From: Candidatus Amesbacteria bacterium RIFCSPLOWO2_01_FULL_49_25
Lineage (GTDB): Bacteria > Patescibacteriota > Microgenomatia > CAZETR01 > Amesbacteraceae
Direction of reading: 5' to 3'
DNA length: 52,245 bases
NCBI GenBank assembly: GCA_001773725.1
Contig: MEXP01000001.1
Coordinates: 1-52,245 of the forward strand
Part shown: one piece after another, positions 1-38,282 of the stretch
Numbering within the stretch: the first letter of the stretch is position 1
How the letters are laid out: each line of letters starts with the position of its first letter
Program-made: the position numbers and the translations under genes
The notes under the pieces: generated by a model
Told to the model about the DNA's origin: nothing
Databases searched by the model: none
What the model saw: the letters and a program-made list of their open reading frames with translations, nothing else

Positions 1-120
1 TCCATAGGGTCTTTTTGTCCTAGTAGAGTTAGGCCGCATCTTCACAGCCATTTCAATTTCGCCGGGTGACAGTTCAAGACAGTTACTCTGTCGTTAAGCC
101 ATTCGTGCGGGTCGGAACTT

Positions 121-818
121 CATCGATAAATCCATTGTCGCCAATGGGATAGACTATACCTTTATCGCAAAATACTTAAAAGTTTTTGTGTGTTGTATTT
201 TCTTTTTCCAGAAGTATTCATCTTCACAGCCAGATTAATAATCTCTCTAATACTCGGTTTTCCTGCAATCTTTCGACATATATTCGAAAAAAGCAAAAAG
301 TCTTTATACTTAGAAGATTTTAATGGATACTTTTCAAAGAAAGGTATCACTTTTTCGTTAATCTCGCCCAAACTCCGAACTTCAAACTTTAAGGTCTTAT
401 CGCTCCTATCAGGCCTAATAGTTCCACAGTCCAAAGTTTTCTGAAATAACTCCAGAACCTCAGACCGATCGCTATTTTGACTGACAGAAAAACTTGGCCT
501 TACCTCAAGTTTGGTCTTCAATTTACTTCTGGGAGAAAAACTGACACAAAAGCTGCCTTCTCCGTCGGCGTAACCCGACAGGTACCAACAAACATCTTGA
601 AATACTGACGTCTTAGGCATATATGCCTCCAAAGTCTACGTGGACTTTGAGTCGTTACGGGGTCAATCCCGCTTAGCGGGACGACTTCCCTCGGTACTAC
701 CATCTTAATCCGAATAAAATACAAAGATCAAGAGGCTCCACCGATATGAGTCAGTGTTTACGGTGCACGATACACCGCGAGGCGTCCAGCCTCGAGGTCG
801 GGCTTGCTTCCGCCGCTT
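121..818 (-). mobile_element. Group I intron in 23S at E. coli position 1951 (L1951), carrying a homing endonuclease
   Basis: Splits UGUCGGGU|AAGUUCCGAC. The 5' exon ends in U, the intron ends in G (pos 121), IGS GCCCGAC pairs with exon GUCGGGU, and P7 is the canonical GACU/AGUC. Confidence 0.93.
162..632 (-). CDS. Single-motif LAGLIDADG homing endonuclease
   Basis: YLSGYADGEGSF motif and F-x-V-S-Q, I-CreI-like size (156 aa), located between the intron's P7 strands. Confidence 0.93.
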   Translation of the reverse strand: MEAYMPKTSVFQDVCWYLSGYADGEGSFCVSFSPRSKLKTKLEVRPSFSVSQNSDRSEVLELFQKTLDCGTIRPDRSDKTLKFEVRSLGEINEKVIPFFEKYPLKSSKYKDFLLFSNICRKIAGKPSIREIINLAVKMNTSGKRKYNTQKLLSILR

Positions 819-838
819 ACCCGACAAGGAATTTCGCT

Positions 839-1107
839 TGCTTTATCTTTACTGCATGTCGCCATGCAGACGCCACTATCTCTTTACCCCGATTTAATCG
901 GGGATGTCTGACGTATAGTGTGTGAGGATTTCCTTCGATTTCTCTCAGGATCTTTCCTGCTGATTAACTCCACCGTTCAGATTTTTACCATTTCTGGTAC
1001 TGTCGGATACTGAGTCTTTCCAGCATATAGTCAGATTTTTGTCTCCCTCTGCGGCAAACAGAATAAAAGACAGAGGTCTCTCGCCTCACTATGGCAGCGC
1101 ACATTCC
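839..1107 (-). mobile_element. ORF-less group I intron in 23S at E. coli position 1931 (L1931), with terminal A and a C:G pair at the G-site
   Basis: Splits CUAUGGU|AGCGAAAUU. Elements seen: P1 (GCCAUAG/CUAUGGU), P10 (CGCU/AGCG), P (AUAUGCUGGAAA), Q (AAUCAGCAGG), P3 (CUGAC/GUCAG), P7 (CACUA/UAGUG), P8 and P9 hairpins. Confidence 0.92.
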
Positions 1108-2585
1108 ACCATAGGATCCTTATAGTTAAGACCGCCATTCACTCGAGCTTAAGTTCAAGCCTCTCCCGAATAAATCGGGGTCAGCCATCCCCATGACTTA
1201 CGAGCATTGGGCAGGCCTCAGCCTGTATACGTTCGCTTACGCGTTTGCACAGACCTGTGTTTTAGTTAAACAGTCGCAGAGTAATCTTTTGCTGCGTCCC
1301 GACTGAGTCGGGAAGGACATCTCACTAGATTACGTCCAGCTTTTTTGCCGAGTTCCTTGAACTGCCTTCTCCCGATCGCCTTGGTCTACTCGACCACCCC
1401 ACCAGTGTCGGTTTGCGGTACGGCAAGAAACATGTCTCACTGCGAATATTTTCTCGCAAACAAAAACTGTCCCAGTTATCTCCAGACATTTGCCAGAAGA
1501 TTCCCCATCCCGCTCGATTAAACGCCAGCCCGCATTTCGCGGGGCCAACTATCTTACGGTCTAAACGCGCATTCACTGCACACGCTAGGAAGTTCTTACT
1601 CGTTCAATCCCCAGTTAATAACGACACGTCCCCTGTAGCCGAATATAAACGGCTCGTCCATCAGCTACCCCCGATTTAATCGGGACTCACCTTAGGTGCC
1701 GACTTACCCTCCGTCAAACAATGTAGCGGAGGAACCCTTGGGGTTTCGGCGGTCCGAATTCTCATCGGACTTACGCTACTCATTCCGGCATTCTCACTTG
1801 AAATCGCTCCAACCAAGCTTACGCCTGACCTTCACTGCAATTTCAACGCTCCCCTACCAAATGTCCTCGACAAAGTCGGGACAAGTCTGTCTCTTCGGCA
1901 AACAGCTTGAGCCTCGATTCATTTTCCGCGCCAGACTTCAAAGTAGACCAGTGAGCTGTTACGCTTTCTTTAAAGGATGGCTGCTTCTGAGCCAACCTCC
2001 TGGCTGTCTATGAAATTTGACATCGTTTCACACTTAGCTGTTATTTAGAGGCCTTAGAGGTCAATCTGGGTTGTTTCCCTTTAGAGCGGCCCGCTTAGCC
2101 GGGTCGTTCTGACTCCCTTTCCCAAAAACTTCCAATTCGGAGTTTGATTGAACAGTACAACTTGCGCTGCACAGCCCATCCAGTGCTCTACCTGAAAGTC
2201 CCGAAGGAAAGAGGCTATACCTATATATATTTCGGGGAGAGCCAGCTATCTCCTGGTTCGATTGGCATATTACCCCTAACCACAAGTCATCCCACAGATT
2301 TGTAACTCTGAAGGGTACGGGCCTCCCCCCGGTTTTCACCGGGGTTCACCCTGCTCATGGTTAGCTCACCAGGTTTCGGGTCTTCCATCCTGCACTAAAC
2401 GCGCTGTTAACACTCGATTTCTCTCCGCCTCCCCCCGACCTGCGGGGTTAGACTCGTGCAGAACGGAAACTCGCCGGATAATTCTTCAATAGGCACGCGA
2501 TCACCCTGAGCGGCTTTGCAGCCGAAGGGCTCTCACTGCTTGTTAGCAGACAATTTCAGGTTCTATTTCACTAGGTTTTCAACCC

Positions 2586-2625
<40 letters not shown>

Positions 2626-2842
2626 AAGCCACAAGTATTTAGCCTTGGAGTGTGGTCACCCCGGATTCCCACAAAGTCGTGTGCTTCATGGTACTTGGGA
2701 ATTCAGGTCTCAAGTGAATTTAGGTTTCGTCTACACGGCTTTCACAGTTCTCTGGCCCGCTATTCCAAGCGGTTTGACTACCCTCTTTCAATCCCTCGAC
2801 CCTCCCGCAACACCCTTCGAAGCTCCTTACGGAGCAAAGTAG

Positions 2843-2873
<31 letters not shown>

Positions 2874-3232
2874 TACTCACGGAATCTCTCACGGCAAAGC
2901 CGTGATAATTTCGATTTCTTTTCCAGCTTCTACTTAGATGTTTCAGTTCGAAGCGTTCCCTCCCAGCTTACGCTGAGTCTCCAAAAGGAGGGGTTTCCCC
3001 ATTCGGACACCGCCGGATCAAAGCTTCTTGGCAGCTCCCCGACGACTATCGTGGCCATATACGTCCTTCTTCGGCTCGTAGCTCCTAGGCATCCTTTGTC
3101 TGCTTTACGTAAAAAAGATACGGCTCTTATTACCTAACTTACTCTCTTCACTTTTCAAAGTACAAGCAAGCCTGGACTAAAAGGCTCGTCTCGGCCTCCC
3201 CGCAAAAGGGAAACCGGGACCAACCCTTCAGT

Positions 3233-3309
3233 TGGTGGACTCGGAGGGACTCGAACCCTCGACCCCGTCATTGCAAATGACGTGCTCTAGCCAGCTGAGC
3301 TACGAGCCC
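3233..3309 (-). tRNA. tRNA-Ala(TGC)
   Basis: Full cloverleaf, anticodon arm CGTCA-TTTGCAA-TGACG, G3:U70, encoded CCA. Confidence 0.96.
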
Positions 3310-3457
3310 AAACCGGCATCTGGGCCCAACTAAAAAAGCCCTCCCCTCGGAAGGCTGCCAGTCCCTTGCTATCCCCTATCAGGCAAAGCCTGTCAAGGAA
3401 AATTTTGGATTAAAAAGCAAAGTTCTCATGAATCGGCCACCTTCAAAAGGTATCCCG

Positions 3458-3486
3458 ATATTACCCCGTCGTGCAAGCTCTGTCAA
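3458..3486 (-). promoter_or_regulatory. Sigma70-type promoter for the tRNA-Ala/23S unit
   Basis: TTGACA-17 bp-TAATAT, with a boxA-like TGCTTTTTAA downstream at ~3410-3419. Confidence 0.65.
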
Positions 3487-3496
3487 GGTGGCTACC

Positions 3497-4696
3497 TCAC
3501 TCATACCTTAAGGCCTCTATAGGATCCAATCTGCTCGCCCGAACCGCCGGCGCCAGCCCCGATACTATCCCCACCCCGGCCGACACCCCAAAAGCCATCA
3601 TCACCGATCCCGCTGTCACTGCCGTTTCAATAAATTGTCGCAAGATGGCCGATATCCCCCACCCAATCCCAATCCCTACCCCACCCCCAACCACCGACAG
3701 CAATATCGATTCAATCAAAAACTGGAGCAAAATATCTCGATTTGTAGCCCCCAGTGCCTTGCGCAAACCAATTTCCCTGGTCCTCTCCGTTACAGACACC
3801 AGCATGATATTGGCAATCCCGATCCCCCCTACAACCAGTGATATCGCCGCAATGCCAGACAGGGCCCCCGTCACCACCCCCAAAAACGAGGTTATAGACT
3901 CCAATAGTTCCTTAGGTTCCAAAATAGTAAAATCGTCATCAGTCAAATTTTTCCGATAAAAGTAGTTCTTAATTTTCCTGCTCGCCGCCGCCGCACTATC
4001 GGCGTCCCTTATCCTCACCATCACGGCCGCCGGTTTTTTAATCCCTGTCACTTTCATGGCCGTAGTCACCGGCATCAACACAAACGAGTTCTCATCGCTG
4101 TTCCCCCCCAGTCCCCCTCCCTTTTCTTTTAGTTTCCCTATTACCTCCACCTTGGACCCCGTCACATCAATCTCTCTTCCCACCGGATTCCCGACCCCCC
4201 CAAACAACTCCTCATAGACCTTATGCCCAATCACCCCCACCATTTGACTTCGCTCCAGCATACTTCTGCTGAAAAACTTTCCCGCCTCTATCTCCACATT
4301 CCCAAACTCCAAATATTCTTCGCCCACTCCTGCCAAATTTCCAAAGTAAGTTTTAGATCGGTATTTCATTGTCGCCCCCTTGGATATCATTCCGCTAACC
4401 TTGACAATCGGGTCACCCAAATCCCCCATCTGTCTGACGTCACTAAAGTCAAATTTTGCTTCCACGTTTCTTGGCGGCCCGCCGGAAAAACTCACTTTAC
4501 CCGGAGAGATAAGCAGCACATTCGACCCGAGAGATTCAAACTCCTCCGTCACAAAAGCCTGCAGACCGTTTCCGATAGACACCAAAAGTATTACCGCCGC
4601 AACCCCGATAATAATCCCCAAAGTGGTCAAAGCCGACCTAGTTTTATTAGTCCTAATCGCTCTCGCCGCGCTCCTTACTAGTTCAACTGTGTCCAT
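3497..4696 (-). CDS. MacB/FtsX-family ABC transporter permease
   Basis: RSALTTLGIIIGV and GIANIMLVSVTERTREIGLRKALGA motifs. Confidence 0.93.
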   Translation of the reverse strand: MDTVELVRSAARAIRTNKTRSALTTLGIIIGVAAVILLVSIGNGLQAFVTEEFESLGSNVLLISPGKVSFSGGPPRNVEAKFDFSDVRQMGDLGDPIVKVSGMISKGATMKYRSKTYFGNLAGVGEEYLEFGNVEIEAGKFFSRSMLERSQMVGVIGHKVYEELFGGVGNPVGREIDVTGSKVEVIGKLKEKGGGLGGNSDENSFVLMPVTTAMKVTGIKKPAAVMVRIRDADSAAAASRKIKNYFYRKNLTDDDFTILEPKELLESITSFLGVVTGALSGIAAISLVVGGIGIANIMLVSVTERTREIGLRKALGATNRDILLQFLIESILLSVVGGGVGIGIGWGISAILRQFIETAVTAGSVMMAFGVSAGVGIVSGLAPAVRASRLDPIEALRYE

Positions 4697-5372
4697 TTGC
4701 TATCCTCCCGTCTTTTATAACTACCTGCCTTTTGGCCCGCCTGGCGATGTTGGGGTCATGTGACACCAATATTATAGTTACCCCACCCTCATGCAGGTCT
4801 TCAAATAATTTAATTATTTCCTCGCCGGTTTTCGAATCCAAGTTTCCCGTCGGCTCATCCGCCAATAAAAGCGACGGGTTAGTAACCAGAGCCCTAGCAA
4901 TCGCTACCCTCTGCTGTTGCCCTCCCGAAAGTTGAGATGGCCTGTTTTGCAGCCGATCCCCCAGACCCACCTTGATCAATTCATTTTTGGCTATTTCATG
5001 TCGCCCGGATGCAGAAATACCCCGATAAACCAGCGGCAGCTCCACATTAACAATTGCCGGTGTTGCCCGCAGTAAATTAAACTGCTGAAACACTAGCCCT
5101 ATTTTTTCATTTCGCAGTTTTGCCAATTTGTTGTCACTCAAATTTTTGGTGTTTATTCCATCCACAAATATCTCCCCCGCGCTTTGCCGATCCATTAGTC
5201 CAATCAGATGCAAAAGCGTCGACTTTCCCGATCCCGACGGCCCGGTAATAGCGACAAATTCTCCCTTAACGACTTCAAAAGACACCCTATCCAAGGCTTT
5301 CACCATGCTCTCACTGCTAGCCGGGTCCCCATACACTCGACTGACATTTTTAAATTCCACTACTGGTACCAT
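4683..5372 (-). CDS. ABC transporter ATP-binding protein (LolD/MacB-type)
   Basis: Walker A GPSGSGKST, LSGGQQQR, ADEPTGNLD. Confidence 0.95.
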   Translation of the reverse strand: MVPVVEFKNVSRVYGDPASSESMVKALDRVSFEVVKGEFVAITGPSGSGKSTLLHLIGLMDRQSAGEIFVDGINTKNLSDNKLAKLRNEKIGLVFQQFNLLRATPAIVNVELPLVYRGISASGRHEIAKNELIKVGLGDRLQNRPSQLSGGQQQRVAIARALVTNPSLLLADEPTGNLDSKTGEEIIKLFEDLHEGGVTIILVSHDPNIARRAKRQVVIKDGRIANGHS

Positions 5373-6355
5373 ACTTTTTGCCCCTCGACAACACCACTCT
5401 TTATTTCCACCTCTTCGTCTCCTTCCAATCCTATCTCCACTCTTTGCCGTTGCCCCCCCGGCAGCTCCACCTCCCCCTCCCCCACCGCCTCGATAGGCAG
5501 CACCAGCACCCCCTTCGCCTCCTCCACTGTTAGTGCCGCATCTCCATTCATCCCCACTCTTAATATCTTAATATCTTCTTCACTTAATATCTTAACTCTC
5601 ACCGAAAACACCGTCGCCCCCGCATCAGACTCGTGAGACGAAAAATCTATGCTGGTTATCTCCCCCTCCAGCTTTTCATCCGGATAAGCATCCAAGGTCA
5701 CCTCCATTGCCTTGCCCACACCTACCAAATTCAATTCCGTCTCATCCACTTCAGATTCAAAATACAAAGACTCGGGATCCACTATATCCACCCCATCTGC
5801 CACCCCCACTGTTTCCCCAGCTACAGTCACAGTTATATTTACCACCACTCCGTCAATCGGCGATATCAAGTTGGCGTTCTGCCTCGCCCTTACCGCCGTC
5901 TGCCAAGCGTCATAAGCCTTATCCCGTGCCGTCTGCGCCGTCACCCGATCGTTTTTCTGTGCAAACGTCTCATCCTTGTCATGGCCCTTCACCTGGTCCT
6001 CGATCTCCTTGGCATTCGCGTCCGCCGCAGCGTAACTATAATAAGCCGCCGTCTCCACCGCCGCCGCATCCCGGGCATCCAATCCCATCACCGCTTGTCC
6101 TTTCTTTATCCTGTCCCCCCCCGCCACTTTTACGTACCCCAACTTACCCACCCCACAAAATCGCAAACTAGCCTCCCTGCCCGCGACAATTTTTCCCGAC
6201 ATCACCAAAGTCTTTCGCACATCCTTCCTCTCCACCACCGCCACCTTCATATTTTTATCATTACTGCTTTCCCGACTATTTCGCCACCACCAAAATCCCG
6301 CCATCCCCAACCCTATCAGCAAAAAAATAACGGCCCTCCGCCTCAAAAATTTCAT
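5360..6355 (-). CDS. MacA-like periplasmic adaptor (membrane fusion protein)
   Basis: N-terminal TM, lipoyl-like SPIDGVV, VDETE...LDAYP; in an operon with the ABC genes. Confidence 0.88.
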   Translation of the reverse strand: MKFLRRRAVIFLLIGLGMAGFWWWRNSRESSNDKNMKVAVVERKDVRKTLVMSGKIVAGREASLRFCGVGKLGYVKVAGGDRIKKGQAVMGLDARDAAAVETAAYYSYAAADANAKEIEDQVKGHDKDETFAQKNDRVTAQTARDKAYDAWQTAVRARQNANLISPIDGVVVNITVTVAGETVGVADGVDIVDPESLYFESEVDETELNLVGVGKAMEVTLDAYPDEKLEGEITSIDFSSHESDAGATVFSVRVKILSEEDIKILRVGMNGDAALTVEEAKGVLVLPIEAVGEGEVELPGGQRQRVEIGLEGDEEVEIKSGVVEGQKVWYQ

Positions 6356-6395
6356 ACAAATTGCATTTTAGCACCAAGCATCCTACTATTAATAC

Positions 6396-6608
6396 ATCGT
6401 CAGATACCTTCTCATTATTCCCGCACTAATCTTCCTTGCCATCACCGGCACGCTTCTCTATGGCCTGATTATCACCCCTCGTCTCAACTCAAGGATGGTT
6501 TGCATTCAATCCCTCTCCCGCTCTTGCTTCTTGGGCACTCCCCTTTGCTTCGATTTCCCCAACCCCTGCTCCACCCCACCACTCTGGTACCCTCCAACCC
6601 GCTATTGA
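6396..6608 (+). CDS. Small membrane-anchored Cys-containing protein, apparent ATC start (not in the ORF track)
   Basis: 70-codon frame IVRYLLIIPALIFLAITGTLLYGLII...CIQ...C...CFDFPNPC...W. TTGCAT-17-TACTAT lies 6 nt upstream of ATC. Confidence 0.5.
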   Translation: MVRYLLIIPALIFLAITGTLLYGLIITPRLNSRMVCIQSLSRSCFLGTPLCFDFPNPCSTPPLWYPPTRY

Positions 6609-6645
6609 GATATAATCCACCAAAGAAAGCTTTCCTGATTTCTAT

Positions 6646-6868
6646 GGGCTGCTGGTTCAGCGGTAGAACGCGTTCCTGATAGCGTGCCGACCATTGGGCG
6701 GATAGTTCAATGGTAGAACGCATTCCTGATAAGAATGAGGCTCGTGGTCCGATTCCACGTCCGCCCACCATTCTGTCGGCACGATATATCAAAGCTTTTG
6801 GGGCAGGTGCCCCAAGTCGCTTTGTTATAAGAACGAAGTGCATGGTTCGACTCCATGGCAGCCCACCA
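6646..6868 (+). tRNA. Outer interrupted tRNA-Ile-like gene (5' half 6646-6680, 3' half 6829-6868) with a ~148-nt insert in the anticodon loop
   Basis: Acceptor GGGCTGC/GCAGCCC+ACCA, D arm GTTC/GAAC, anticodon stem CGTTC/GAACG, T arm CATGG-TTCGACT-CCATG. Confidence 0.8.
6696..6770 (+). tRNA. tRNA-Ile(GAT), nested inside the outer tRNA
   Basis: Complete cloverleaf GGGCGGA/TCCGCCC, CATTC-CTGATAA-GAATG, CCA. The T-loop TCCGATT is atypical. Confidence 0.9.
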
Positions 6869-7089
6869 TGACCAATCAATCAATCCGTCTTAGCCTCGTC
6901 GCCATTTCCCTCCTCACCCATTTCCAAACGCCCCTTCGTGAAGGCGCTCTTCCCCCACCCCCCGAATTCTGCTCCGGCCCAATCTGTGTTAGCATCATGG
7001 GCCAACATTTCCAACCCGACGCATCACTTTCGAAAGCCATTTTTGGCCCTATCCGACCATTCAAAGAACTCGACGCAATCCTTTCTTAA
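6868..7089 (+). CDS. Hypothetical small protein
   Basis: ATG overlaps the tRNA CCA; no recognisable motif. Confidence 0.35.
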   Translation: MTNQSIRLSLVAISLLTHFQTPLREGALPPPPEFCSGPICVSIMGQHFQPDASLSKAIFGPIRPFKELDAILS

Positions 7090-7282
7090 TCCCCGCTATC
7101 TCCCGCTCGATCCCCTCCACCATGTCCCTATACACCATATATTCGGTGTACCTCAGCTCGGATAAAGAATCTTCATGCCTCACCCCCCGAAACAGCCTCT
7201 TCTTCTCCTCATAAATCTTCTTATACTTTAGGAGTTGCTCCTCCAAATACCCAAGCCGTGCTCTACTGTCTGTTCTGCTCAT
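7061..7282 (-). CDS. Small coiled-coil hypothetical protein
   Basis: Charged helical 73-aa ORF with the typical minus-strand codon bias. Confidence 0.65.
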   Translation of the reverse strand: MSRTDSRARLGYLEEQLLKYKKIYEEKKRLFRGVRHEDSLSELRYTEYMVYRDMVEGIEREIAGIKKGLRRVL

Positions 7283-7532
7283 TTCCCCATTCTAACATCC
7301 ACGCCTCCCATTCCTTCCTTACCCAATTCTTTACCCCAATAGCCCTAAGCACAATGCCCAAATATACTGGATTAAGCCATACCGGCGGCGAATCCACCCA
7401 CTCAAAACGCCTTCCGCACTTTCCGCAATCTACATTTATCGGGGAATATCCCCGACTCTGCATCCTCAGCCTCTTGGCCGGACAATCCGCCTCTGCACAA
7501 ATCAGCGCCACAAGCTTATTGTACCCCACCAA
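7263..7532 (-). CDS. Small putative Zn-ribbon protein
   Basis: CxxxxC and CxxC motifs. Confidence 0.5.
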   Translation of the reverse strand: MVGYNKLVALICAEADCPAKRLRMQSRGYSPINVDCGKCGRRFEWVDSPPVWLNPVYLGIVLRAIGVKNWVRKEWEAWMLEWGNEQNRQ

Positions 7533-7558
7533 AAAACCCGCCTCCAGACGGGTTTTAT
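7531..7558 (-). terminator. Intrinsic terminator downstream of 16S
   Basis: AAAACCCG...CGGGTTTT hairpin with T/A tracts on both sides. Confidence 0.65.
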
Positions 7559-8740
7559 ATTCTCTCAGGTTCCAAAAAGTGGTGGGAAAAACAGCGCCGA
7601 GTCACTTTGACGTTTGTGACTTAGCCTGCCAATGTTGGTTGGTTTATTAAAGTGGCCGACCAAAAAGGACCACTGGGGTAAAAATACTCCTAGAAAGGAG
7701 GTGATCCATCCCCAGCTTCGGCTAGGGATACCTTGTTACAACTTAGCCCTCATCGCCGAGTTTACCCTCTTCCCGATTAAATCGGGACGTCAGGCACCCC
7801 CGACTTTGCTGGCTTGATGGGCGGTGTGTACAAAAGGCGAGAACGTATTCACCGCGGTCTGCTGATCCGCGATTACTACCAAGTCCATCTTCATGGGGGC
7901 GAGTTTCAGCCCCCAATCTGAACTGAGGGGTGTTTTGCTGGGATTAGCTCCGCCTTGCGGCTTGGCAACCCATTGTTCCACCCCATTGTAGGATGTGTGT
8001 GGCCCCAGATATAAGGATCATGCTGACTTGACGTCATCCCCTCCTTCCTCCCCGATAAATATCGGGGCAGTCTCCCATGAGTAATCAACATGGGATAGGG
8101 GTTGCGCTCGTTTCGGCACTTAAGCCGACACCCCACGGCACGAGCTGAAGACAGCCATGCAACACCTGTCCAGCACTTCACACTTTCGCGTGATTTTCCA
8201 TAGTTTCCTACAGAACATTAGGTACTGGATGTCAAATCTGGGTAAGGTCCATCGCTTCGTGTCGAATTGAACCACATGCTCCCCTGGTTGTGCGCCTTCC
8301 CGTCAATTCCTTTAAGTTTCAACCTTGCGGCCGTACTCCCCAGGCGGCCCGCTTCACGCGTTAGCTCCGACCCCTCCAAAAAAGGAAGGATCAAGCGGGC
8401 ATGGTTTACAGCTAGGACTACAGGGGTCTCTAATCCCTTTCGCTCCCCTAGCTTTCGTTCCTCAGCGTCAGTGCGGCCCCAGGTACCTGCCTTCGCCCTC
8501 GGTGTTCCTGACAATATCAACGCATTTCACTGCTACACTGTCAGTTCCAGTACCCCCTAACCGACTCAATCACGTAAGTTTTTCGTCCGGATCCGAGGTT
8601 GGGCCTCGGGCTTTCAAACGAAACTTTACGTGACGCCTACGAACTCTTTACGCCCAGTAAATCCGGATAACGCTCGCACCCCACGTATTACCGCGGCTGC
8701 TGGCACGTGGTTAGCAGGTGCTTATTCTACAGGTACCGTC

Positions 8741-9052
8741 CCCCTCACCTTTTTGCCAACAAACCGACACTTCTTTTTAACCTAATTTTTAACATTTGCA
8801 TTCCTTTGCCGTGATTTTTCAATTTTCTTTCACGATCTAGTGCATCTAAGTGTGATTTGTATCCCTCACAGTAAACTAATTCCCATGGGATATATGGTTT
8901 GGTAGCAAAACTTTGACCTTTATTGTGTTCTTCTAATCTTTTTTTTAAATTATCAGAATAACCAACATACCATTGGTCAAAATCCTTACTCCAAAGCATA
9001 TACACCCAATACATCAAATCTAGTTTACTAAATTTGGCAAAAAGGTGAGGGG
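8741..9052 (-). mobile_element. Intervening sequence in 16S helix 17 region (V3), bounded by a perfect 19-bp inverted repeat
   Basis: CCCCTCACCTTTTTGCCAA (8741-8759) and TTGGCAAAAAGGTGAGGGG (9034-9052) enclose an AT-rich ORF; no group I core seen. Confidence 0.85.
8745..9017 (-). CDS. Small GIY-YIG endonuclease
   Basis: YWVYML...WYVGYS..LKKRLEEHN...ALDRERKLK. Confidence 0.9.
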   Translation of the reverse strand: MMYWVYMLWSKDFDQWYVGYSDNLKKRLEEHNKGQSFATKPYIPWELVYCEGYKSHLDALDRERKLKNHGKGMQMLKIRLKRSVGLLAKR

Positions 9053-9458
9053 CTTCCCTGTCAAAAGGAGTTTACAACCCGAAGGCCTTCATCCTCCACG
9101 CGGCGTCGCTGCGTCAGACTTTCGTCCATTGCGCAATATTCCTAGTTGCTGCCATCCGTAGATGTACTGCCCGTATCTCAGTGCAGTTGTGGCTGACCGA
9201 CCTCTCAGTCCAGCTACCCGTCATCGCCTTGGTAGGCTATTACCCCACCAACTAGCTGATAGGAATTAGGCTCCTCCATCGGCGGCCAGTTACGGCCTTT
9301 TCCTACAAAGCTTTACGCAAAGTAGGATTATGCGGTATTAATTGGCCTTTCGGCCAGCTATTCCCCACCATAGGGTAGATTCCTAATCATTACTCACCCG
9401 TCTGCGACTGTCCGGTAGCCTCTTGCGAGATCACCGAACCGTTCCACTTGCATGCCTA

Positions 9459-9501
<43 letters not shown>

Positions 9502-9633
9502 AAAAAAATTCCCACCACTTCTTGAAATCCAAGAAATGGCTTACCTTACTCATAAAAACACTGTCTTTGTCAACGAGCTAGACTCTCCAGAAAACGAAGC
9601 CAATTTTAACTCATATCCACATCCCTGTAAAGC

Positions 9634-26316: not shown

Positions 26317-27416
26317 TCCATACTCCTTTCCACCAACTGCAACATCTCTTTTTTAAATCTTTCCTCCGAAAACCTCCCCGCCCATTTTTTAATTTCTGTC
26401 TCATTCCACTTTAGTTTATTAAAGTCTTTCATCGCCTTTCCCAACCCTTCCACGGAATAATCGTCAAACAATAATCCAGTCTTTTTATTTACCACCGTCT
26501 CTCTGTACCCCCCGCCATCAAAAGCAATTACCGGCGTTCCGCACGTCATTGCCTCAACGGGAGTTATCCCAAAATCCTCATTTTTCGCAAGCGCCAAAAA
26601 GGCCTTCGCCCCCGCCATCAACCTATACTTTTCTTCCTCACTCACCCTCCCCAAAAACTCAATATTAGAATAATTAGAGTAATTAGAAATTAGAAATTTA
26701 TTAGAGTACCCTGCTCTCTCCCCCGCAATTTTAAGTTCAAAGCCATATTTTCCGGCCGCCTCAATCGCTAGTTCCAACCCTTTCCCCCCCACAATCCTCG
26801 ACACTATCAAATAGTAATCTTTTCTCTTATATCCTCCCGCTCTTACACTCTTACATTCTACCGGCGGGTATATCACCACACACTCCCTCCTATAAAACTT
26901 CCTTATCCTACTCGCCACATTTTTAGAATTGGCCACGAATATATCTACCTTTTGCGCTTGTTCAAAATCATGCATTCGCAAAAAATGTCCCACTATCAAC
27001 GCATACACTCTCACTGGCCAATATCTTTGCCAGTTAATCGACGTCTCATATCCATACAGCCACCTCGGCGGGGTATGGCAATAACAAATTTCTTTAACTC
27101 CAAACCTTTTACCTAATCCTTTAGTTACATACCAGCTGGCCGAAGTAATTATCAGGTCATAGCCAGAAAAATCAAGGCTTCCCCAGATCCATGGGATCAA
27201 AAATCTCAGCGGACTATACAGCCGCTCATAAAACGGCAAGAGCCCAAACCAGGAAGTAATAACTTTTCTACCCTCAAAGGCCTTAGTCGCGCTCGACCCT
27301 GGTACCGTAAATGCGGTGTAAATCGGCGCTTCCGGCCATATCTTGGACAGCGCCTCAAGCACTTTCTCCGCCCCCCCGTACTCATTCAAATAGTCGTGGA
27401 CTAAAGCAACTTTCAC
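26313..27416 (-). CDS. Glycosyltransferase family 4
   Basis: VHDYL..YGGAE, EDFGITPVEAM..G.PV. Confidence 0.92.
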   Translation of the reverse strand: MKVALVHDYLNEYGGAEKVLEALSKIWPEAPIYTAFTVPGSSATKAFEGRKVITSWFGLLPFYERLYSPLRFLIPWIWGSLDFSGYDLIITSASWYVTKGLGKRFGVKEICYCHTPPRWLYGYETSINWQRYWPVRVYALIVGHFLRMHDFEQAQKVDIFVANSKNVASRIRKFYRRECVVIYPPVECKSVRAGGYKRKDYYLIVSRIVGGKGLELAIEAAGKYGFELKIAGERAGYSNKFLISNYSNYSNIEFLGRVSEEEKYRLMAGAKAFLALAKNEDFGITPVEAMTCGTPVIAFDGGGYRETVVNKKTGLLFDDYSVEGLGKAMKDFNKLKWNETEIKKWAGRFSEERFKKEMLQLVERSME

Positions 27417-33213: not shown

Positions 33214-33287
33214 TGGTGAGAATGGAGGGACTTGAACCCTCATTTCCCGTTTTGGAGACGGGCGCTCTACCCTTGAGCTACATTCCC
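33214..33287 (-). tRNA. Atypical tRNA with Trp anticodon CCA (A73, G1-C72, G2:U71)
   Basis: GGGAATG/CATTCTC-A-CCA, CCCGT-CTCCAAA-ACGGG, GAGGG-TTCAAGT-CCCTC. Confidence 0.9.
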
Positions 33288-33291
33288 ATAT

Positions 33292-33500
33292 AAAAGGCCC
33301 TTGCAAACACCCGAGTTCAAATAACTAAACTCAGAAATTTACAAGGGCCTACAAGTTAAGCGGTGCCACCTTGCGTTGTACTCTTCTTGACATGCTCCGC
33401 TACTGCGACACATGTTGCTGACTTTTACGGTTTCGCCTCCGTACGATACTTTTCGTCCCCTCCCCCGTTCCAACCTTCGGGATCAATGGGTTTGCAAATT
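33292..33500 (-). promoter_or_regulatory. T-box riboswitch, Trp (UGG) specifier, ultrashort Stem I, transcriptional terminator
   Basis: T-box AAGGTGGCACCGC (33360-33372); terminator AGGCCCTTG...CAAGGGCCTTTT; K-turn Stem I with loop AAGGTTGGAA. Confidence 0.85.
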
Positions 33501-33508
33501 GTAGGTTA

Positions 33509-33537
33509 ATTATAGCAAATATATCAAATTAAAACAA
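33509..33537 (-). promoter_or_regulatory. Promoter of the T-box leader
   Basis: TTGTTT-17-TATAAT with extended TGn. Confidence 0.7.
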
Positions 33538-33564
33538 GATTCTAATCCCCCGTCTAAGCTGATA

Positions 33565-33723
33565 CTACCTCACGCACGCCTCTACAATTTTCTGATCCGC
33601 TCTCTCCTGATACTTAACCCCGTACAAAAACCCAATGAGTGGCAAAGCCGCAAACAAAATCGCTGTAATAGTCCTCGAAAGCGGCGTCACCGTAGTCCAA
33701 TACTTGGGCAGTTTTTTACTCAC
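33565..33723 (-). CDS. Small membrane protein (52 aa, not in the ORF track)
   Basis: MSKKLPKYWTTVTPLSRTITAILFAALPLIGFLYGVKYQ..., single TM. Confidence 0.65.
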   Translation of the reverse strand: MSKKLPKYWTTVTPLSRTITAILFAALPLIGFLYGVKYQERADQKIVEACVR

Positions 33724-33842
33724 ATATTTATACTAATATATTCGTTTCTCCAAAATCAATAGCCTCTTTTCCACCTCATCCCTGCTCAATTCACAACGCT
33801 AGACCAAAATGGTAAAATGAGGCTGTCCTTTAAAAAAAGACG

Positions 33843-33912
33843 TGCGGGGTAGTGTAAAGCTGCACGGAAGGCTCATAATCTTCCAGTCTGGGTGCGATTC
33901 CCAGCCCCGCAA
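33843..33912 (+). tRNA. tRNA(CAT), Met-type; anchor of the cassette array
   Basis: TGCGGGG/CCCCGCA, GAAGG-CTCATAA-TCTTC, CTGGG-TGCGATT-CCCAG. Confidence 0.85.
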
Positions 33913-34028
33913 CAAGGAGCGCAGCGACGAAGTGGTGATCGAAGTCGAACCACACGTAAAATTTGGCTTCATAACTTGAGGTTAGGGAGTGGTAAAGTCA
34001 CACCTAAAATGAATGGTAAAATTAGGCA

Positions 34029-34808
34029 ATGGGAATGATAATGAGCTACGAAGAGTATCTGAAATTGGGCAGGCAACCAAACCCTTATTTGGTGTGGATA
34101 GCCAGTAAAGGCAAACAACTATATTTTTTGGGTTCTAGTCATTCTTTCAACCCAGCAGATTCTATCCACCAAGTGACGAAGCACTATTGGCATGATTTTT
34201 TGGGATCTGTCGGTAATAAAAAACCGGTAGTTTTAATTGAAGGAGGGAAAAGATCCATTAGTAACAGTGAGGATGAAGCCATTAGGAAGTTTGGGGAAGC
34301 AGGATTGGTGGCGTTTCTAGCTGCACAAAATGGTTGGGAGCATGAATCCCCTGAACCTAATTTGTTGACAGAAACATCTGAACTACGGAAGGAATTTTCC
34401 GAAGAGGAAATCTGGACTTATTACTTCACCCGAATGGCGGCTCAATGGAACAGACTGTTAAATAAGCCAGACATTTGGAGTTATGTGAGAAACTCATTAT
34501 TGAAAGATAATGAAGAATTGAAGTGGAATGCGGATAATCTTGGCCAAGAAAGTTTAGTTAACAATTTTGCAAAATTATCTGGACAAAAATTTGTTGAGTT
34601 CGACTACGAACTATTAAATGGATTGTGTGATCCAACAAAAACAAAAACAAAAATAAATCAGGTGTCCAGGAGAAGTGGACAAATAAGGGACGAGTATATT
34701 GTGCAAAAGATAACAGAACATTGGAAAAACGGAGAGAGTATTTTTGCTGTTTATGGCAGAAGCCATGTGGTTATGCAGGAACCGGCACTAAGACGGTTGT
34801 TAACCTAG
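34029..34808 (+). CDS. Hypothetical protein (cassette 1), weakly TraB/GumN-like
   Basis: 259 aa; LYFLGSSH, VLIEGG, RD..I, AVYG.SH. Confidence 0.8.
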   Translation: MGMIMSYEEYLKLGRQPNPYLVWIASKGKQLYFLGSSHSFNPADSIHQVTKHYWHDFLGSVGNKKPVVLIEGGKRSISNSEDEAIRKFGEAGLVAFLAAQNGWEHESPEPNLLTETSELRKEFSEEEIWTYYFTRMAAQWNRLLNKPDIWSYVRNSLLKDNEELKWNADNLGQESLVNNFAKLSGQKFVEFDYELLNGLCDPTKTKTKINQVSRRSGQIRDEYIVQKITEHWKNGESIFAVYGRSHVVMQEPALRRLLT

Positions 34809-34820
34809 CTATAAACCAGG

Positions 34821-34847
34821 TTCTGATTTCTTCCAACCCCCGCAACA
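34821..34847 (+). repeat. Cassette boundary site 1
   Basis: TTCTGATTTC-ttccaacc-CCCGCAACA. Confidence 0.85.
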
Positions 34848-34854
34848 CAGTAGG

Positions 34855-34884
34855 AATGGAGGCCCACAAAGCCTCCATTTTTTA
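34855..34884 (+). terminator. Intrinsic terminator at the start of cassette 2
   Basis: AATGGAGGC-ccacaaa-GCCTCCATT followed by a T tract. Confidence 0.75.
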
Positions 34885-34920
34885 TTGAACCATCACAAGT
34901 TCTCCTGTATCATTCATCTA

Positions 34921-35267
34921 ATGAGACAAAAATATTTATTATCCCTCTGGTAATTCTTGCAACATACTACCTGCTATCTTTCGGGATAGGATATTTGCTA
35001 ATTGTTTTAGGGTTACGTGCCGCTGGTGGATTCTTCTCTGGAGGAAATTTCTGGTCAAACTTTTTGTTTTTGGCAATACCATTGTCGAATTTTTTACTTC
35101 TAGGGATTGCTATTTGGCAACTTGTTGATCAGGCAAAGAGATTGAATGTTGATCATAAAACTAGGAATGTTGTCGTTATCATCTTTTTGGCCATTTACTT
35201 TCTCTACAGTAGTCCTTTACGAAATATCCCATTAAACCTGTGGCACTGGTTTATAAAAAGACAGTAG
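34921..35267 (+). CDS. Membrane protein (cassette 2), apparent 1-nt frameshift near the start
   Basis: Hydrophobic frame open from ~34929. ATG 34921 is out of frame by one base in an A5 run. Confidence 0.6.
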
Positions 35268-35268
35268 G

Positions 35269-35295
35269 TTCTGATTTCATGTATTCCCCGCAACA
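35269..35295 (+). repeat. Cassette boundary site 2
   Basis: TTCTGATTTC-atgtattc-CCCGCAACA. Confidence 0.85.
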
Positions 35296-35340
35296 AGGAG
35301 CGAAGCGACGCCGAAGGACAAAAACATTTACAATCATCTC

Positions 35341-35586
35341 GTGTACTTCGTTTATATACTTCTTTGTCAGGACGGCAGTTTTTACACCGGTAGCTCCAGT
35401 AATCCCCGACAACGTTTCCTCGACCACCAAAACGGCAAGGGTGGTGCCTACACTCGCTCCCACAAACCAATTAAAATAGTTTACACGGAAGAACTCCCAG
35501 ACAAATCCTCCGCTCTCAAACGCGAGTCACAAATCAAAGGCTGGAGTCGCCAAACGAAAATTAAAATTTTAAATTTACGATTCTGA
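35341..35586 (+). CDS. Small GIY-YIG nuclease (UPF0213-like; cassette 3)
   Basis: YFVYILLC.DGSFYTG, R...H..GKG..YTR, ALKRE.QIK.W.R. Confidence 0.92.
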   Translation: MYFVYILLCQDGSFYTGSSSNPRQRFLDHQNGKGGAYTRSHKPIKIVYTEELPDKSSALKRESQIKGWSRQTKIKILNLRF

Positions 35587-35607
35587 TTTCATCCAATTCC
35601 CGCAACA
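35581..35607 (+). repeat. Cassette boundary site 3
   Basis: TTCTGATTTC-atccaatt-CCCGCAACA. Confidence 0.85.
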
Positions 35608-35630
35608 CAACCTCTTGGGTATGCAAACTT

Positions 35631-35987: not shown

Positions 35988-36080
35988 AGTCTAATGATAT
36001 ACCACTGTAGCAGAGCTTAAGAAACGTTGGTTGTGAGAAATACGAACCGGTGATACAATAAACCATAGATACCATTTTCC

Positions 36081-36758: not shown

Positions 36759-36821
36759 CTTAGTGGTTAAAGCACTGGTATCATAAACCAGGAACCGCTG
36801 GTTCGAATCCAGCCGTAGCCA
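36749..36821 (+). tRNA. tRNA-Met(CAT), elongator-like
   Basis: GGCTACG/CGTAGCC-A, CTGGT-ATCATAA-ACCAG, GCTGG-TTCGAAT-CCAGC. Confidence 0.9.
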
Positions 36822-37345: not shown

Positions 37346-37400
37346 TCTTGCATCCTAGCACACTTTAGGCTACAATTCCTAAGTTAAGGAGTATCCTGTA

Positions 37401-38276: not shown

Positions 38277-38282
38277 TAAATT

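What the first reader, a model, noticed from the sequence alone, without database searches (positions are those of the whole stretch)
6646..6868. A tRNA nested inside a tRNA: complete tRNA-Ile(GAT) in the anticodon loop of a second tRNA-Ile
Seen: the outer halves (6646-6680 and 6829-6868) pair perfectly in all four stems and end in ACCA. They differ from the inner tRNA by compensatory changes (acceptor GGGCTGC/GCAGCCC versus GGGCGGA/TCCGCCC), so the outer copy does not look like a decayed duplicate. The ~148-nt insert is structured. A 9-bp helix CGTGCCGAC/GTCGGCACG (6683-6691/6775-6783) clamps the inner tRNA, followed by a second arm ATATCAAAGC..TTGGGGC-AGGT-GCCCCAA..GCTTTGTTAT. TATCA (6787-6791) can alternatively pair with the 5' TGATA. 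Removing the insert can give loop CTGATAA (GAU) or CTTATAA (UAU), depending on cut sites. No group I/II core or canonical BHB is visible. Inference: an undescribed precursor in which RNase P and 3' processing release the inner tRNA, leaving a split or re-ligated outer tRNA or a tRNA-mimic regulatory RNA.
Basis: partly seen in the sequence, partly recalled or inferred. Interest (0 to 1): 0.88.

Follow-up and report, generated by a model that had tools for sequence, protein, structure and literature searches.

The report
Mobile tRNA cassette nested inside tRNA gene
A 148-base DNA cassette that carries its own isoleucine tRNA gene has landed in the anticodon loop of the bacterium's resident isoleucine tRNA gene and taken over its job, and similar "Russian-doll" tRNA genes turn up in many ultra-small (CPR) bacteria, pointing to a seemingly undescribed way in which tRNA genes are replaced.

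Summary
Bases 6646-6681 and 6827-6868 are two halves of a sound tRNA-Ile(GAU) gene, split in the anticodon loop by a 148-nt insert. The insert holds the genome's only intact tRNA-Ile(GAU) (6696-6770), clamped by a 9-bp helix.

It is not an assembly artefact. An independent metagenome contig carries it at 99.9% identity.

- An insert-free allele, with the outer tRNA uninterrupted, occurs in a public run that also holds the filled allele.
- The genome lacks EndA and RtcB.
- In relatives the outer copies decay.

A fixed-pattern scan found 27 such loci, 25 of them titled as CPR lineages.
- Some are three layers deep.
- One cassette sits in different outer tRNAs.
- Different cassettes sit in identical outer tRNAs.
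- The tRNA that is inner in one genome is outer in another.

Best reading (0.7): a small mobile cassette with no protein gene inserts into its cognate tRNA gene, uses that gene's promoter and replaces its function. The outer halves are a fresh relic. The enzyme that moves the cassette is unknown. Seven literature searches found no description.

The parts
6611..6616 (+). TATAAT, a -10-like box upstream of the outer 5' half; probable promoter of the whole nested transcript
   Evidence: Read. The same box lies 10-25 nt upstream of 6 of 7 un-nested tRNA-Ile genes of the family. The consensus scan did not call it because no -35 matches, so promoter function is inferred.
6629..6639 (+). GCTTTCCTGAT: an 11-nt relic of an older tRNA-Ile anticodon stem and loop, preceded by AAGAAAG; a possible third, oldest layer
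   Evidence: Read. It matches the anticodon-arm sequence of relatives' tRNA-Ile genes printed. The syntenic un-nested relative G017 lacks these about 19 nt. Interpretation inferred.
6646..6681 (+). Outer tRNA-Ile(GAU) 5' half (positions 1-37). The last three bases, ATA, are repeated at the other edge of the insert.
   Evidence: joined halves give ARAGORN tRNA-Ile gat; 72/75 identical to G014's intact gene.
6679..6826 (+). The 148-nt insert as delimited by the natural insert-free allele. The boundary is ambiguous by 3 nt (ATA), so 6682-6829 is equally valid.
   Evidence: table 5: a joint 6678->6827 'skips 148, both = 3'. It appears in a contig of run X11 (279 nt of flank and 30 nt of outer 3' half, 0 mismatches) and in a relative's contig in X13.
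6682..6695 (+). Left arm of the cassette; clamp strand CGTGCCGAC at 6683-6691, then CATT
6696..6770 (+). Inner tRNA-Ile(GAU), the only intact one in the genome and presumably the working gene
   Evidence: ARAGORN; Rfam tRNA 68.3 bits.
6771..6786 (+). Right arm; TTCT, then clamp strand GTCGGCACG at 6775-6783, then ATA
6787..6828 (+). Second palindromic module (hairpin 2, stem TTGGGGC/GCCCCAA at 6798-6815), homologous to the 3' hairpin of the type A element. A weak terminator-like match.
   Evidence: Alignment A1; 89% identity to G014; a second copy in this genome at C24:41030-41089; the terminator-like hit is not above the shuffle expectation.
6827..6868 (+). Outer tRNA-Ile(GAU) 3' half, ending ACCA

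Best explanation
The nest is the product of a DNA insertion. A promoter-less cassette of about 148 bp landed in the anticodon loop of the lineage's resident tRNA-Ile(GAU) gene, between positions 34 and 37, with a 3-nt ATA repeat at its edges. The cassette consists of a complete tRNA-Ile(GAU) gene of a different type, flanked by inverted-repeat arms, plus a small hairpin module.

Shown: the insert is polymorphic in nature, the resident gene is intact apart from the insert, and related cassettes recur in many CPR genomes.

Inferred: transcription starts at the resident gene's promoter and runs through the outer 5' half. RNase P and 3' trimming release the inner tRNA, which now does the decoding. 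The arms pair and keep the near-identical inner and outer halves from mispairing. The outer halves are a recently killed gene that will decay.

Such cassettes behave as a mobile family. They hit only their cognate tRNA gene, because only then does the cell survive. The new inner gene is again a target, which yields Russian-doll nests. Recombination between the repeated halves later trims nests to 'half + arm + tRNA' forms.

The catalyst of insertion is unknown. The precise, repeatable boundaries with no duplication, or only 2-3 nt, argue for a site-specific enzyme acting in trans. I hold that sub-claim at roughly 0.4. The alternative is spread by uptake of DNA and recombination.
For: (1) Insert-free allele. 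A 325-nt contig in run X11 joins 6678 to 6827 with 0 mismatches over 279 + 30 nt, restoring the loop CTGATAA. The same run also holds the filled form (contig covering 6696-6856, 0 mismatches).
(2) Filled form in independent assemblies.
(3) The outer gene is the native type: 72/75 identical to G014's working gene, differing by a compensatory pair. The inner gene is another type: best match 65/73 to G012, and 59/75 to its own outer gene. The locus is syntenic across the family, HlyD-like gene - tRNA-Ile - 16S.
(4) Of 18 tRNA-Ile(GAU) loci from this genome and relatives, 11 have flanking half-copies. Eight reach an alignment score of 40 or more and three more are seen by inspection. Seven are plain.
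(5) A whole-collection scan for 'tRNA-Ile 5' part, 28-58 nt, tRNA-Ile' gave 27 loci. 25 are titled as CPR lineages spanning at least 10 candidate phyla. They include layered nests (L069, L062, L049, L070).
(6) Same cassette in different hosts: L056 versus L059, cassette 94% identical, outer tRNA 82%. Same host gene with different cassettes: L044 versus L056, outer tRNAs identical over the 73 nt they share, homologous upstream flank, unrelated cassettes. The tRNA that is inner in L023 is outer in L051 (73/73), with homologous arms (32/45).
(7) In one arm family (X) the left arms are 24-27 of 27-28 identical across hosts titled Saccharibacteria, Paceibacterota, Liptonbacteria and Parcubacteria, while the enclosed tRNAs are only 55-68 of about 73-80 aligned positions identical. 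The insertion point is the same (after A35) in hosts with different anticodon stems.
(8) Arm pairing beats shuffles in 18 of 26 distinct nests (p<0.05; 12 at p<0.01), against 0 of 7 plain tRNA-Ile genes.
(9) A complete outer tRNA is predicted in only 12 of 27 scan loci. The others are truncated or further interrupted.
(10) This genome has similar relics at other tRNA genes: Gln nested in a D-loop with an 8-bp clamp, plus Arg, Pro and Tyr.
Against: - No enzyme, autonomous partner element or circular or free form of any cassette was found. The neighbours are efflux genes. The genome's one HUH (REP-associated-like) transposase has its own unrelated palindromes. The X-arm motif was in 0 viral contigs and in 0 of 401 sampled genomes of the phylum.
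- This exact cassette was found in only one genomic context, so its own mobility rests on the empty allele alone.
- That allele rests on one contig with a 30-nt side, just under the tool's 31-letter rule, plus one contig from a relative.
- The two alleles could belong to two co-occurring strains rather than to a recent event.
- No RNA data exist, so processing of the inner tRNA and silence of the outer are inferred.
- About half of the outer copies are still perfectly paired, which could also mean selection.
- The scan pattern required a 5' half plus an inner gene, so it cannot give frequencies.
- Most sequences are metagenome-assembled genomes, where repeats can be mis-joined (for example L046).
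- Arrangements such as 'tRNA + spacer + partial stem + insert + 3' half' (L006, L025) are not simply derived from a nest.
Confidence: 0.7

Rival explanations
1. Functional nested precursor. Both tRNAs are made: RNase P and 3' trimming release the inner tRNA. The outer halves, held together by the clamp, are then cut and ligated, or work as a split tRNA or a tRNA-mimic regulator.
For: The outer halves pair perfectly in all four stems and end in ACCA. The nested fold is very stable (z = -5.1). Arm helices keep their structure while their sequence differs between families. Further inserts in outer copies lie in the D-, anticodon- and T-loops rather than in stems, as in archaeal multi-intron tRNAs. 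The layout resembles the leader helices of archaeal split tRNAs (recalled).
Against: An insert-free allele exists, so the outer tRNA works without any such pathway and the insert is recent. There is no EndA and no RtcB in a 97%-complete genome. I saw no bulge-helix-bulge geometry at the junctions of any arm family (my reading). Outer copies are incomplete in 15 of 27 scan loci. The same outer gene carries unrelated cassettes in two genomes. G.T equals A.C among clamp mismatches, 12 versus 12, which is not the pattern of a selected RNA helix.
Confidence: 0.08
2. A recombination scar rather than a dedicated mobile cassette. The nest arose from ordinary processes: integration and erosion of a larger integrase-borne element at the tRNA gene, single-crossover insertion of a small circle, or uptake of foreign tRNA-Ile DNA followed by illegitimate or homologous recombination. 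The arms are merely leftover flanks.
For: tRNA genes are classic integration sites, and such events leave tRNA fragments (Sugahara 2012, PMC3293823, abstract and discussion read; van der Gulik 2023, PMC9897764, abstract read). The genome has three tyrosine recombinases. Arrangements with one-sided partial copies (L006, L025, L009-L011, and the T-loop relics) fit single-crossover products. The 2-3-nt edge repeats could be microhomology. No transposase was found.
Against: No integrase or cargo lies next to this nest or within the held flanks of others. A standard integration duplicates one tRNA end, not both around a complete inner gene. Arms are conserved at 86-100% across distant hosts, with an identical insertion point. 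Arms always pair, which random flanks would not do (0 of 7 plain genes). Identical outer genes with different cassettes show no co-converted flank changes.
Confidence: 0.17
3. Assembly or binning artefact: two tRNA-Ile alleles of co-occurring strains were mis-joined.
For: The genome is metagenome-assembled. The tRNA halves are repeats shared with relatives in the same samples (loose ends).
Against: An independent metagenome contig of 4576 nt spans the whole nest and 3 kb of flanks at 99.9% identity. 18 of 20 listed runs hold at least half of the sampled words of 6400-7100. Contigs with 0 mismatches cover 6696-6856 and 6712-7100. Shared words between inner and outer halves are about 10 nt, far below the 31-nt word size I recall for those contigs. 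The same architecture is present in 27 other records.
Confidence: 0.01

Closest known systems
Integrative elements (phages, plasmids, islands) that integrate into tRNA genes and carry a copy of the displaced tRNA segment. Model of tRNA gene disruption in Caldiarchaeum (Sugahara et al. 2012, PMC3293823; abstract and discussion read). tRNA gene fragments left by integration (van der Gulik et al. 2023, PMC9897764; abstract read).
   Same: The target is a tRNA gene, often its anticodon or T loop. The incoming DNA restores tRNA function, and the displaced tRNA piece stays behind as a fragment. Heterogeneity occurs within a natural population.
   Different: Here there is no integrase and no cargo. 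The incoming DNA is 110-210 nt and consists of a whole tRNA gene plus paired arms. Both halves of the old gene remain, wrapped around the new one. There is no long identity block, only 0-3 nt at the edges. Nests are layered.
Archaeal tRNA introns and split or tri-split tRNAs, including introns that transposed among tRNAs (Fujishima et al. 2009, 2010; seen only as cited in PMC10714607, passages read; otherwise recalled).
   Same: Inserts sit in tRNA loops, several per gene. A helix formed by the insert's ends extends the anticodon stem. The inserts appear mobile between tRNA genes.
   Different: This is a bacterium without EndA or RtcB, with no bulge-helix-bulge. The insert contains a complete cognate tRNA. 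Outer genes decay instead of being maintained.
Group I introns in bacterial tRNA anticodon loops (tRNA-Leu UAA, tRNA-fMet, tRNA-Ile CAU, tRNA-Arg CCU; recalled).
   Same: A bacterial tRNA gene is interrupted in the anticodon loop.
   Different: There is no group I core. Rfam finds none at 6550-6950 at E up to 10, although it does find the group I intron in this window's 23S gene. Without its tRNA, the insert is only about 73 nt.
Miniature non-autonomous elements built of palindromes (MITEs, REP/REPIN doublets, IS200/IS605-derived palindromic elements; recalled).
   Same: Small, with no protein gene, made of inverted repeats or hairpins. They show presence/absence polymorphism, little or no target duplication, and a short preferred target motif (after GA or GAT in a loop).
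   Different: This cassette carries a functional tRNA gene between the repeats. It occurs in one or two copies per genome rather than dozens. It targets only tRNA loops. No matching transposase was found.

Membership tests
Archaeal-type (BHB) tRNA intron / split tRNA | Bulge-helix-bulge motif (3-nt bulge, 4-bp helix, 3-nt bulge) at both exon-insert junctions | tested here: not met
   Manual reading of the junctions, of the arm families and of the fold. The junctions show a 5-bp TGATA/TATCA helix or unequal bulges (for example 1 nt versus 4 nt), never the canonical geometry. No dedicated BHB program was available.
Archaeal-type (BHB) tRNA intron / split tRNA | tRNA splicing endonuclease (EndA) and RtcB-type ligase encoded in the genome | tested here: not met
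   PF01974 gave 0 matches at E<=1 and PF01139 gave 0 matches at E<=1 in a 97.3%-complete, 30-contig genome. The control genomes gave matches.
Archaeal-type (BHB) tRNA intron / split tRNA | A joined mature outer tRNA exists as RNA | not testable with these tools
   No listed run that holds the stretch is on record as RNA.
Group I intron in a tRNA anticodon loop | Group I catalytic core (Rfam RF00028) and a length of about 200 nt or more | tested here: not met
   No RF00028 match at 6550-6950 even at E<=10. The same library finds the 23S intron at 852-1117. The insert is 148 nt, of which 75 are the tRNA.
Integrase-borne island at a tRNA gene (att scar) | Integrase gene and cargo between an intact tRNA and a direct repeat of one tRNA end | tested here: not met
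   The neighbours are HlyD-, ABC- and MacB-like genes. The nearest tyrosine recombinase is about 30 kb away at 37401-38276. Both halves are present around a complete inner gene.
MITE-like non-autonomous DNA element | Presence/absence polymorphism with precise boundaries | tested here: met
   The joint 6678->6827 skips exactly 148 nt and restores a tRNA. This rests on one exact contig and one from a relative.
MITE-like non-autonomous DNA element | Terminal inverted repeats and a target-site duplication | tested here: inconclusive
   A 12-nt inverted repeat with 1 mismatch starts at the left edge, but its partner is internal (6775-6786) and is followed by a second palindromic module. The edge repeat is ATA or AT (2-3 nt) in this arm family and absent in families X, Y and Z.
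MITE-like non-autonomous DNA element | Many copies per genome and a matching transposase | tested here: not met
   The cassette is single-copy in the genome. The hairpin module has one further copy. The REP-associated-like transposase (51.8 bits, below the cut-off of 80) is flanked by its own palindrome, with 5 copies all on contig C12.

The most novel reading that the evidence does not exclude
CPR bacteria harbour a class of self-propagating tRNA genes that encode no protein. A tRNA flanked by pairing arms homes into the anticodon loop (or the D or T loop) of its cognate gene, hijacks that gene's promoter and replaces it, layer upon layer. This would be a natural tRNA 'gene drive'. Its leftover arms would be the raw material of intron-like inserts in bacterial tRNA genes. 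In the boldest version, young outer halves are still matured into a working tRNA by a bacterial cut-and-join pathway that needs neither EndA nor RtcB.
Probability: 0.1. Interest if true: 0.95.

Novelty: new variant of a known kind. Interest (0 to 1): 0.8.

Why it matters
If the reading holds, tRNA genes in a large part of the bacterial tree are turned over by small cassettes that carry a replacement tRNA and insert into the gene they replace. Four consequences follow.

1. It would be a new kind of minimal selfish element, whose only 'gene' is an essential host function.
2. It gives a concrete, observable route from an intact tRNA gene to split halves, hairpin 'introns' and scattered tRNA fragments. 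That bears on the old debate about how tRNA genes came to be in pieces.
3. It matters for annotation. Standard tRNA finders report only the inner gene and miss the halves, or may call chimeras (L046).
4. The nested transcript is a natural test case for how RNase P chooses between two stacked tRNA folds.

The layered nests also record a dated series of horizontal transfers between CPR lineages.

Tried and rejected
- ARAGORN with intron search (0-400 nt) did not recover the outer tRNA. On the whole genome it gave one implausible tRNA-Thr with a 200-nt intron, which I did not follow.
- Rfam found no family for the insert or for the type A element.
- EndA and RtcB are absent. Other RNA ligase families were not searched.
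- Neighbouring genes are an efflux pump and a SpoU methylase, with no mobile-element enzyme.
- The ORF at 36081-36758 has only a weak helix-turn-helix likeness to transposases (IS630 model 16 bits against a cut-off of 100), so I rejected it as a transposase.
- The HUH transposase on C12 is a REP-associated-like protein with its own palindromes, which are unrelated to the cassettes.
- Integron attC-like, Xer/dif-like and TA-duplicating (IS630-type) readings of the junctions were considered by eye and dropped. The core motifs or duplications do not fit all members: L023 and type A have AT, not TA, and families X, Y and Z have none.
- The viral-contig scan for the X arm gave 0 hits. The scan for the loose type A pattern gave more than 110 hits, which I took as chance matches in a huge collection and did not examine.
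- The X-arm motif was found in 0 of 401 sampled phylum genomes.
- The strict pattern for an intact anticodon arm matched 13 of 27 family genomes. It is too strict (it misses G015 and G017) to say whether any genome has only an interrupted gene.
- No RNA holder was listed for the stretch. The two 'RNA?' runs hold a small share, and the one I laid covered only part of the inner tRNA from a relative. There is therefore no evidence either way on expression.
- The promoter scan did not call the TATAAT at 6611-6616, and its single terminator-like hit is at the chance level.
- Supplementary files of papers were not opened.
- Literature: seven searches (and the find) gave no paper describing a tRNA gene nested in a tRNA gene in CPR or other bacteria. 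Subscription journals are not covered.
Full report
**What is there.** The window is contig C1 of a 958-kb, 30-contig, 97%-complete genome. The titles of closely matching records place it among Amesbacteria-like CPR bacteria: one relative's contig is the same record as an Amesbacteria contig. On the minus strand lie the 23S gene (1-3119, with a group I intron at 852-1117), tRNA-Ala (3233-3309), three efflux-pump genes (3497-6355) and the 16S gene (7694-9507). On the plus strand, between the pump and the 16S gene, lies the finding.

ARAGORN and Rfam see one tRNA-Ile(GAU) at 6696-6770. It is the only tRNA-Ile(GAU) among the 44 tRNA genes of the genome. Around it, 6646-6681 and 6827-6868 are the two halves of a second tRNA-Ile(GAU). 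When the insert is removed inside a script, ARAGORN calls the joined halves a 75-nt tRNA-Ile(gat).

They form in the predicted fold (z = -5.1).

**It is not an artefact.** A metagenome contig from another assembly (L181, 4576 nt) carries the whole nest and its flanks at 99.9% identity over 3003 nt. Of 20 listed public runs, 18 hold at least half of the sampled words of 6400-7100. Error-free contigs from two runs cover 6696-6856 and 6712-7100.

**The key result: an empty site.** In run X11 a 325-nt contig matches 6400-6678 and then 6827-6856, both without a mismatch. It skips exactly 148 nt, with a 3-nt (ATA) ambiguity at the joint. A relative's contig in run X13 shows the same joint. The joined form has the normal loop CTGATAA.

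So cells, or very close strains, exist in which the 'outer' gene is an ordinary uninterrupted tRNA-Ile(GAU), and X11 also holds a contig of the filled form. However, those 30 letters carry the anticodon-stem variant specific to this organism, and the other side is 279 nt of unique flank.

**Which gene is native.** The locus is syntenic across the family. The outer tRNA is 72/75 identical to the working gene at the same locus in relative G014. It differs by one compensatory pair in the anticodon stem and one T-loop base. The inner tRNA is 59/75 identical to the outer, and its best match is 65/73 to the gene of relative G012. In relative G006 a 3' half identical to our inner gene's 3' half is itself an outer relic.

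**Relatives.** I examined 18 tRNA-Ile(GAU) loci (this genome and 17 loci from relatives).
- 11 have half-copies beside or around the gene. Eight reach an alignment score of 40 or more (L001, L005, L006, L009, L010, L011, L023, L025). Three more are seen by inspection (L012, L013, L022).
- 7 are plain.

A fixed pattern (tRNA-Ile 5' part, a 28-58-nt gap, then a tRNA-Ile D-to-anticodon arm) scanned over one genome per species gave 27 loci. 25 are titled as CPR lineages: Gottesman-, Niyogi-, Sacchari-, Nomura-, Lipton-, Woese-, Staskawicz-, Ames- and Yanofskybacteria, Paceibacterota and Parcubacteria. Two are titled Gammaproteobacteria and Spirochaetia, probably mis-binned. Two of the 27 are identical over the region shown (L060 and L063).

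After in-silico removal of the insert, 12 of the 27 give a complete outer tRNA-Ile. The rest have truncated outer halves, outer halves with further hairpin inserts in the D, variable or T regions, or only the 5' half plus arm.

Several loci are layered.
- L069 has three tRNA-Ile layers.
- L062 and L049 have an extra outer remnant.
- L067 has a tandem array of '5' half + arm'.

Our window too has an 11-nt anticodon-arm relic at 6629-6639, upstream of the outer gene.

**Cassettes behave as units.** The arms fall into families.
- In three families (X, Y, Z) the insert sits exactly after A35, with no repeated base at the edges.
- In the family of our window (W), and in the related tRNA-less 'type A' element, it sits one or two bases later, with an AT or ATA repeat at the edges.

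Several comparisons show the cassettes moving as units.
- X left arms are 24-27 of 27-28 identical between hosts titled Saccharibacteria, Paceibacterota, Liptonbacteria and Parcubacteria and a relative of our class. The tRNAs they enclose are only 55-68 of about 73-80 aligned positions identical. The hosts' anticodon stems also differ.
- L056 and L059 share one cassette (94% identical) in different outer genes (82%).
- L044 and L056 have outer genes identical over the 73 nt they share and homologous upstream flanks, but unrelated cassettes.
- The tRNA that is inner in L023 is outer (73/73) in L051, with homologous arms (32/45).

These four patterns are what successive invasions predict. They are hard to get from vertical descent of a functional nested gene.

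**Arms.**
- The left and right arms pair better than 95% of shuffles in 18 of 26 distinct nests, and better than 99% in 12. L046 and L068 were left out because no inner gene was called, and duplicate loci were dropped.
- Six of the 8 failures simply lack a right arm.
- None of 7 plain tRNA-Ile genes has such leader-trailer pairing.
- In the 16 nests with an alignable inverted repeat, mismatches are G.T 12, A.C 12 and other 24, against 281 Watson-Crick positions. A selected RNA helix should tolerate G.U and purge A.C, so this parity weakly favours a DNA-level inverted repeat or no selection. The loci are not independent.

**The second module.** Bases 6787-6828 align with the 3' hairpin of type A. 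Type A is a 45-70-nt element with the layout CACGAR, hairpin, GRGATAGAR, hairpin, GATAT.

Its pattern occurs 11 times in 8 of 27 family genomes and 0 times in the reversed-pattern control.
- Nine copies lie in the anticodon loop or T loop of a partial tRNA copy that sits beside an intact gene of the same tRNA (Ile, Arg, Thr twice, Trp, and others).
- Two copies are not near tRNAs and are probably chance.

One copy is in this genome, next to tRNA-Arg(TCG). In our window the inner tRNA sits where the first hairpin's loop would be.

This genome also has three further relic loci.
- A tRNA-Gln is nested in the D-loop of an older Gln copy with an 8-bp clamp.
- A 5' relic lies before tRNA-Pro.
- A 3' relic lies after tRNA-Tyr.

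Replacement of tRNA genes by insertion is thus a habit of the lineage, not a peculiarity of tRNA-Ile.

**How it most likely works.**

Shown:
- A discrete 148-nt DNA insert, polymorphic in nature, splits the native gene and supplies another.
- Related cassettes are scattered through CPR, with precise and repeatable boundaries.

Inferred:
- The cassette has no promoter. The family's TATAAT box lies upstream of the outermost 5' half here (6611-6616) and in nested relatives. One transcript therefore covers the outer half, arm, inner tRNA, arm and outer half.
- RNase P and 3' trimming free the inner tRNA.
- The arms hold the topology, so that near-identical inner and outer halves do not mispair.
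- Only a cognate cassette can survive insertion into a single-copy essential gene. That explains why Ile sits in Ile and Gln in Gln.
- The new gene is again a target, which explains the layers.
- Recombination between repeated halves explains the '5' half + arm + tRNA' forms and their tandem arrays.

Not explained:
- What catalyses insertion. Precise boundaries, the same site in hosts with different stems, and unchanged flanks in L044 and L056 favour a site-specific enzyme acting in trans. The target lies after GA or GAT in a hairpin loop, with little or no duplication. I could not find such an enzyme.
- Forms such as L006 and L025 (intact gene, short spacer, partial anticodon stem, insert, 3' half). 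These fit a single-crossover insertion of a small circle better than a trimmed nest.

**Comparison with what is known.** The closest known things are four.
- Integrative elements that target tRNA genes and bring a replacement piece.
- Mobile archaeal tRNA introns and split tRNAs.
- Group I introns in bacterial tRNA loops.
- Palindromic miniature elements.

The membership tests fail for the first three, on the absence of an integrase, EndA, RtcB, a bulge-helix-bulge and a group I core. They are inconclusive for the last.

Seven literature searches of the held library found no description of a tRNA gene nested in its cognate tRNA gene in CPR or other bacteria. The nearest concept is the Caldiarchaeum model of tRNA gene disruption by integrating elements (PMC3293823; abstract and discussion read). 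The library does not cover most subscription journals.

**Verdict.** The RNA-splicing or regulatory interpretation is not supported, although the nested transcript and RNase P release of the inner tRNA are likely. The best explanation (0.7) is a small mobile tRNA-replacement cassette. I rate it a new variant of tRNA-targeting mobile DNA and of high interest (0.8), with the mechanism of movement open.

Noticed in passing
G000 contig C24:41030-41089 (not in the window): A 60-nt type A element sits in the T loop of a diverged 3' fragment of tRNA-Arg(TCG), 36 nt downstream of the intact tRNA-Arg(TCG) gene. Its second hairpin is 86% identical to window 6792-6828.
   Followed up: yes
G000 contig C24, about 26590-26800, minus strand: tRNA-Gln(UUG) (c[26687,26758]) lies between a partial 5' copy and a diverged D-arm-to-3'-end copy of an older tRNA-Gln, with an 8-bp clamp (GTCAACTA/TAGTTGAC). 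This is a nest in the D loop with a decayed outer gene.
   Followed up: partly
G000 C24 near c[45456,45529] and C25 near 45037-45174: tRNA-Pro(UGG) is preceded by an 18-nt copy of its own 5' end plus a 27-nt arm. tRNA-Tyr is followed, after a hairpin, by a 14-16-nt copy of its own 3' end.
   Followed up: partly
window 7694-9507 (minus strand) and 852-1117 (minus strand): The 16S gene spans 1814 nt against a 1533-nt model, so it carries about 280 nt of insertion. The 23S gene carries a 266-nt group I intron without an ORF.
   Followed up: no
window 3233-9507: The rRNA operon is broken up. Three MacAB/HlyD-type efflux genes lie between 16S and tRNA-Ala/23S. tRNA-Ile is on the opposite strand, converging on the 3' end of the 16S gene. 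This layout is syntenic in the family.
   Followed up: partly
window 33214-41737: A cluster holds a second tRNA-Trp, two tRNA-Met(CAU), a Xer-like tyrosine recombinase (37401-38276), an aminoacyl-tRNA editing-domain protein (38529-39023), tRNA-Ile(UAU) (39268-39344, minus strand) and a VirD4/TraG-like coupling protein (39392-41737). It may be a remnant of an integrated conjugative element that brought tRNAs.
   Followed up: partly
whole genome G000: ARAGORN finds no tRNA-Asn(GUU) in the 97%-complete assembly. It finds only two CAU tRNAs plus a tRNA-Ile(UAU), so AUA may be read by UAU rather than by a lysidine-modified CAU tRNA.
   Followed up: no
window 6749-6755 and many loci (L011, L013, L015, L022, L027, L048, L061): The T loop reads TCCGAYT, with C at position 55 instead of the near-universal U (pseudouridine 55). 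This holds for the inner tRNA-Ile and for many CPR tRNA-Ile genes. The outer gene has the usual TTCGACT.
   Followed up: no
G000 contig C12:276-2790: A REP-associated-like tyrosine (HUH) transposase gene (320-985, minus strand; below the NCBIfam cut-off) is surrounded by all five copies in the genome of the palindrome AAGGTCNGACCTT.
   Followed up: yes
G000 C25:46805-46844 and C23:13047-13088: Two 40-nt hairpins share their termini (CCTGCCCGC ... GCAGGCGGG) with the X-family arms and with the D-loop inserts seen in decayed outer tRNA-Ile copies of relatives (L012, L022).
   Followed up: partly
loci L060 and L063; L051; L066; L046: The same nest sequence is filed under MAGs titled Woesebacteria and Amesbacteria. 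Two nests lie in bins titled Gammaproteobacteria and Spirochaetia, which is probably mis-binning. In L046 an inner 5' half is fused to a 3' half that pairs only with the outer 5' half, which may be a recombinant or an assembly chimera.
   Followed up: no
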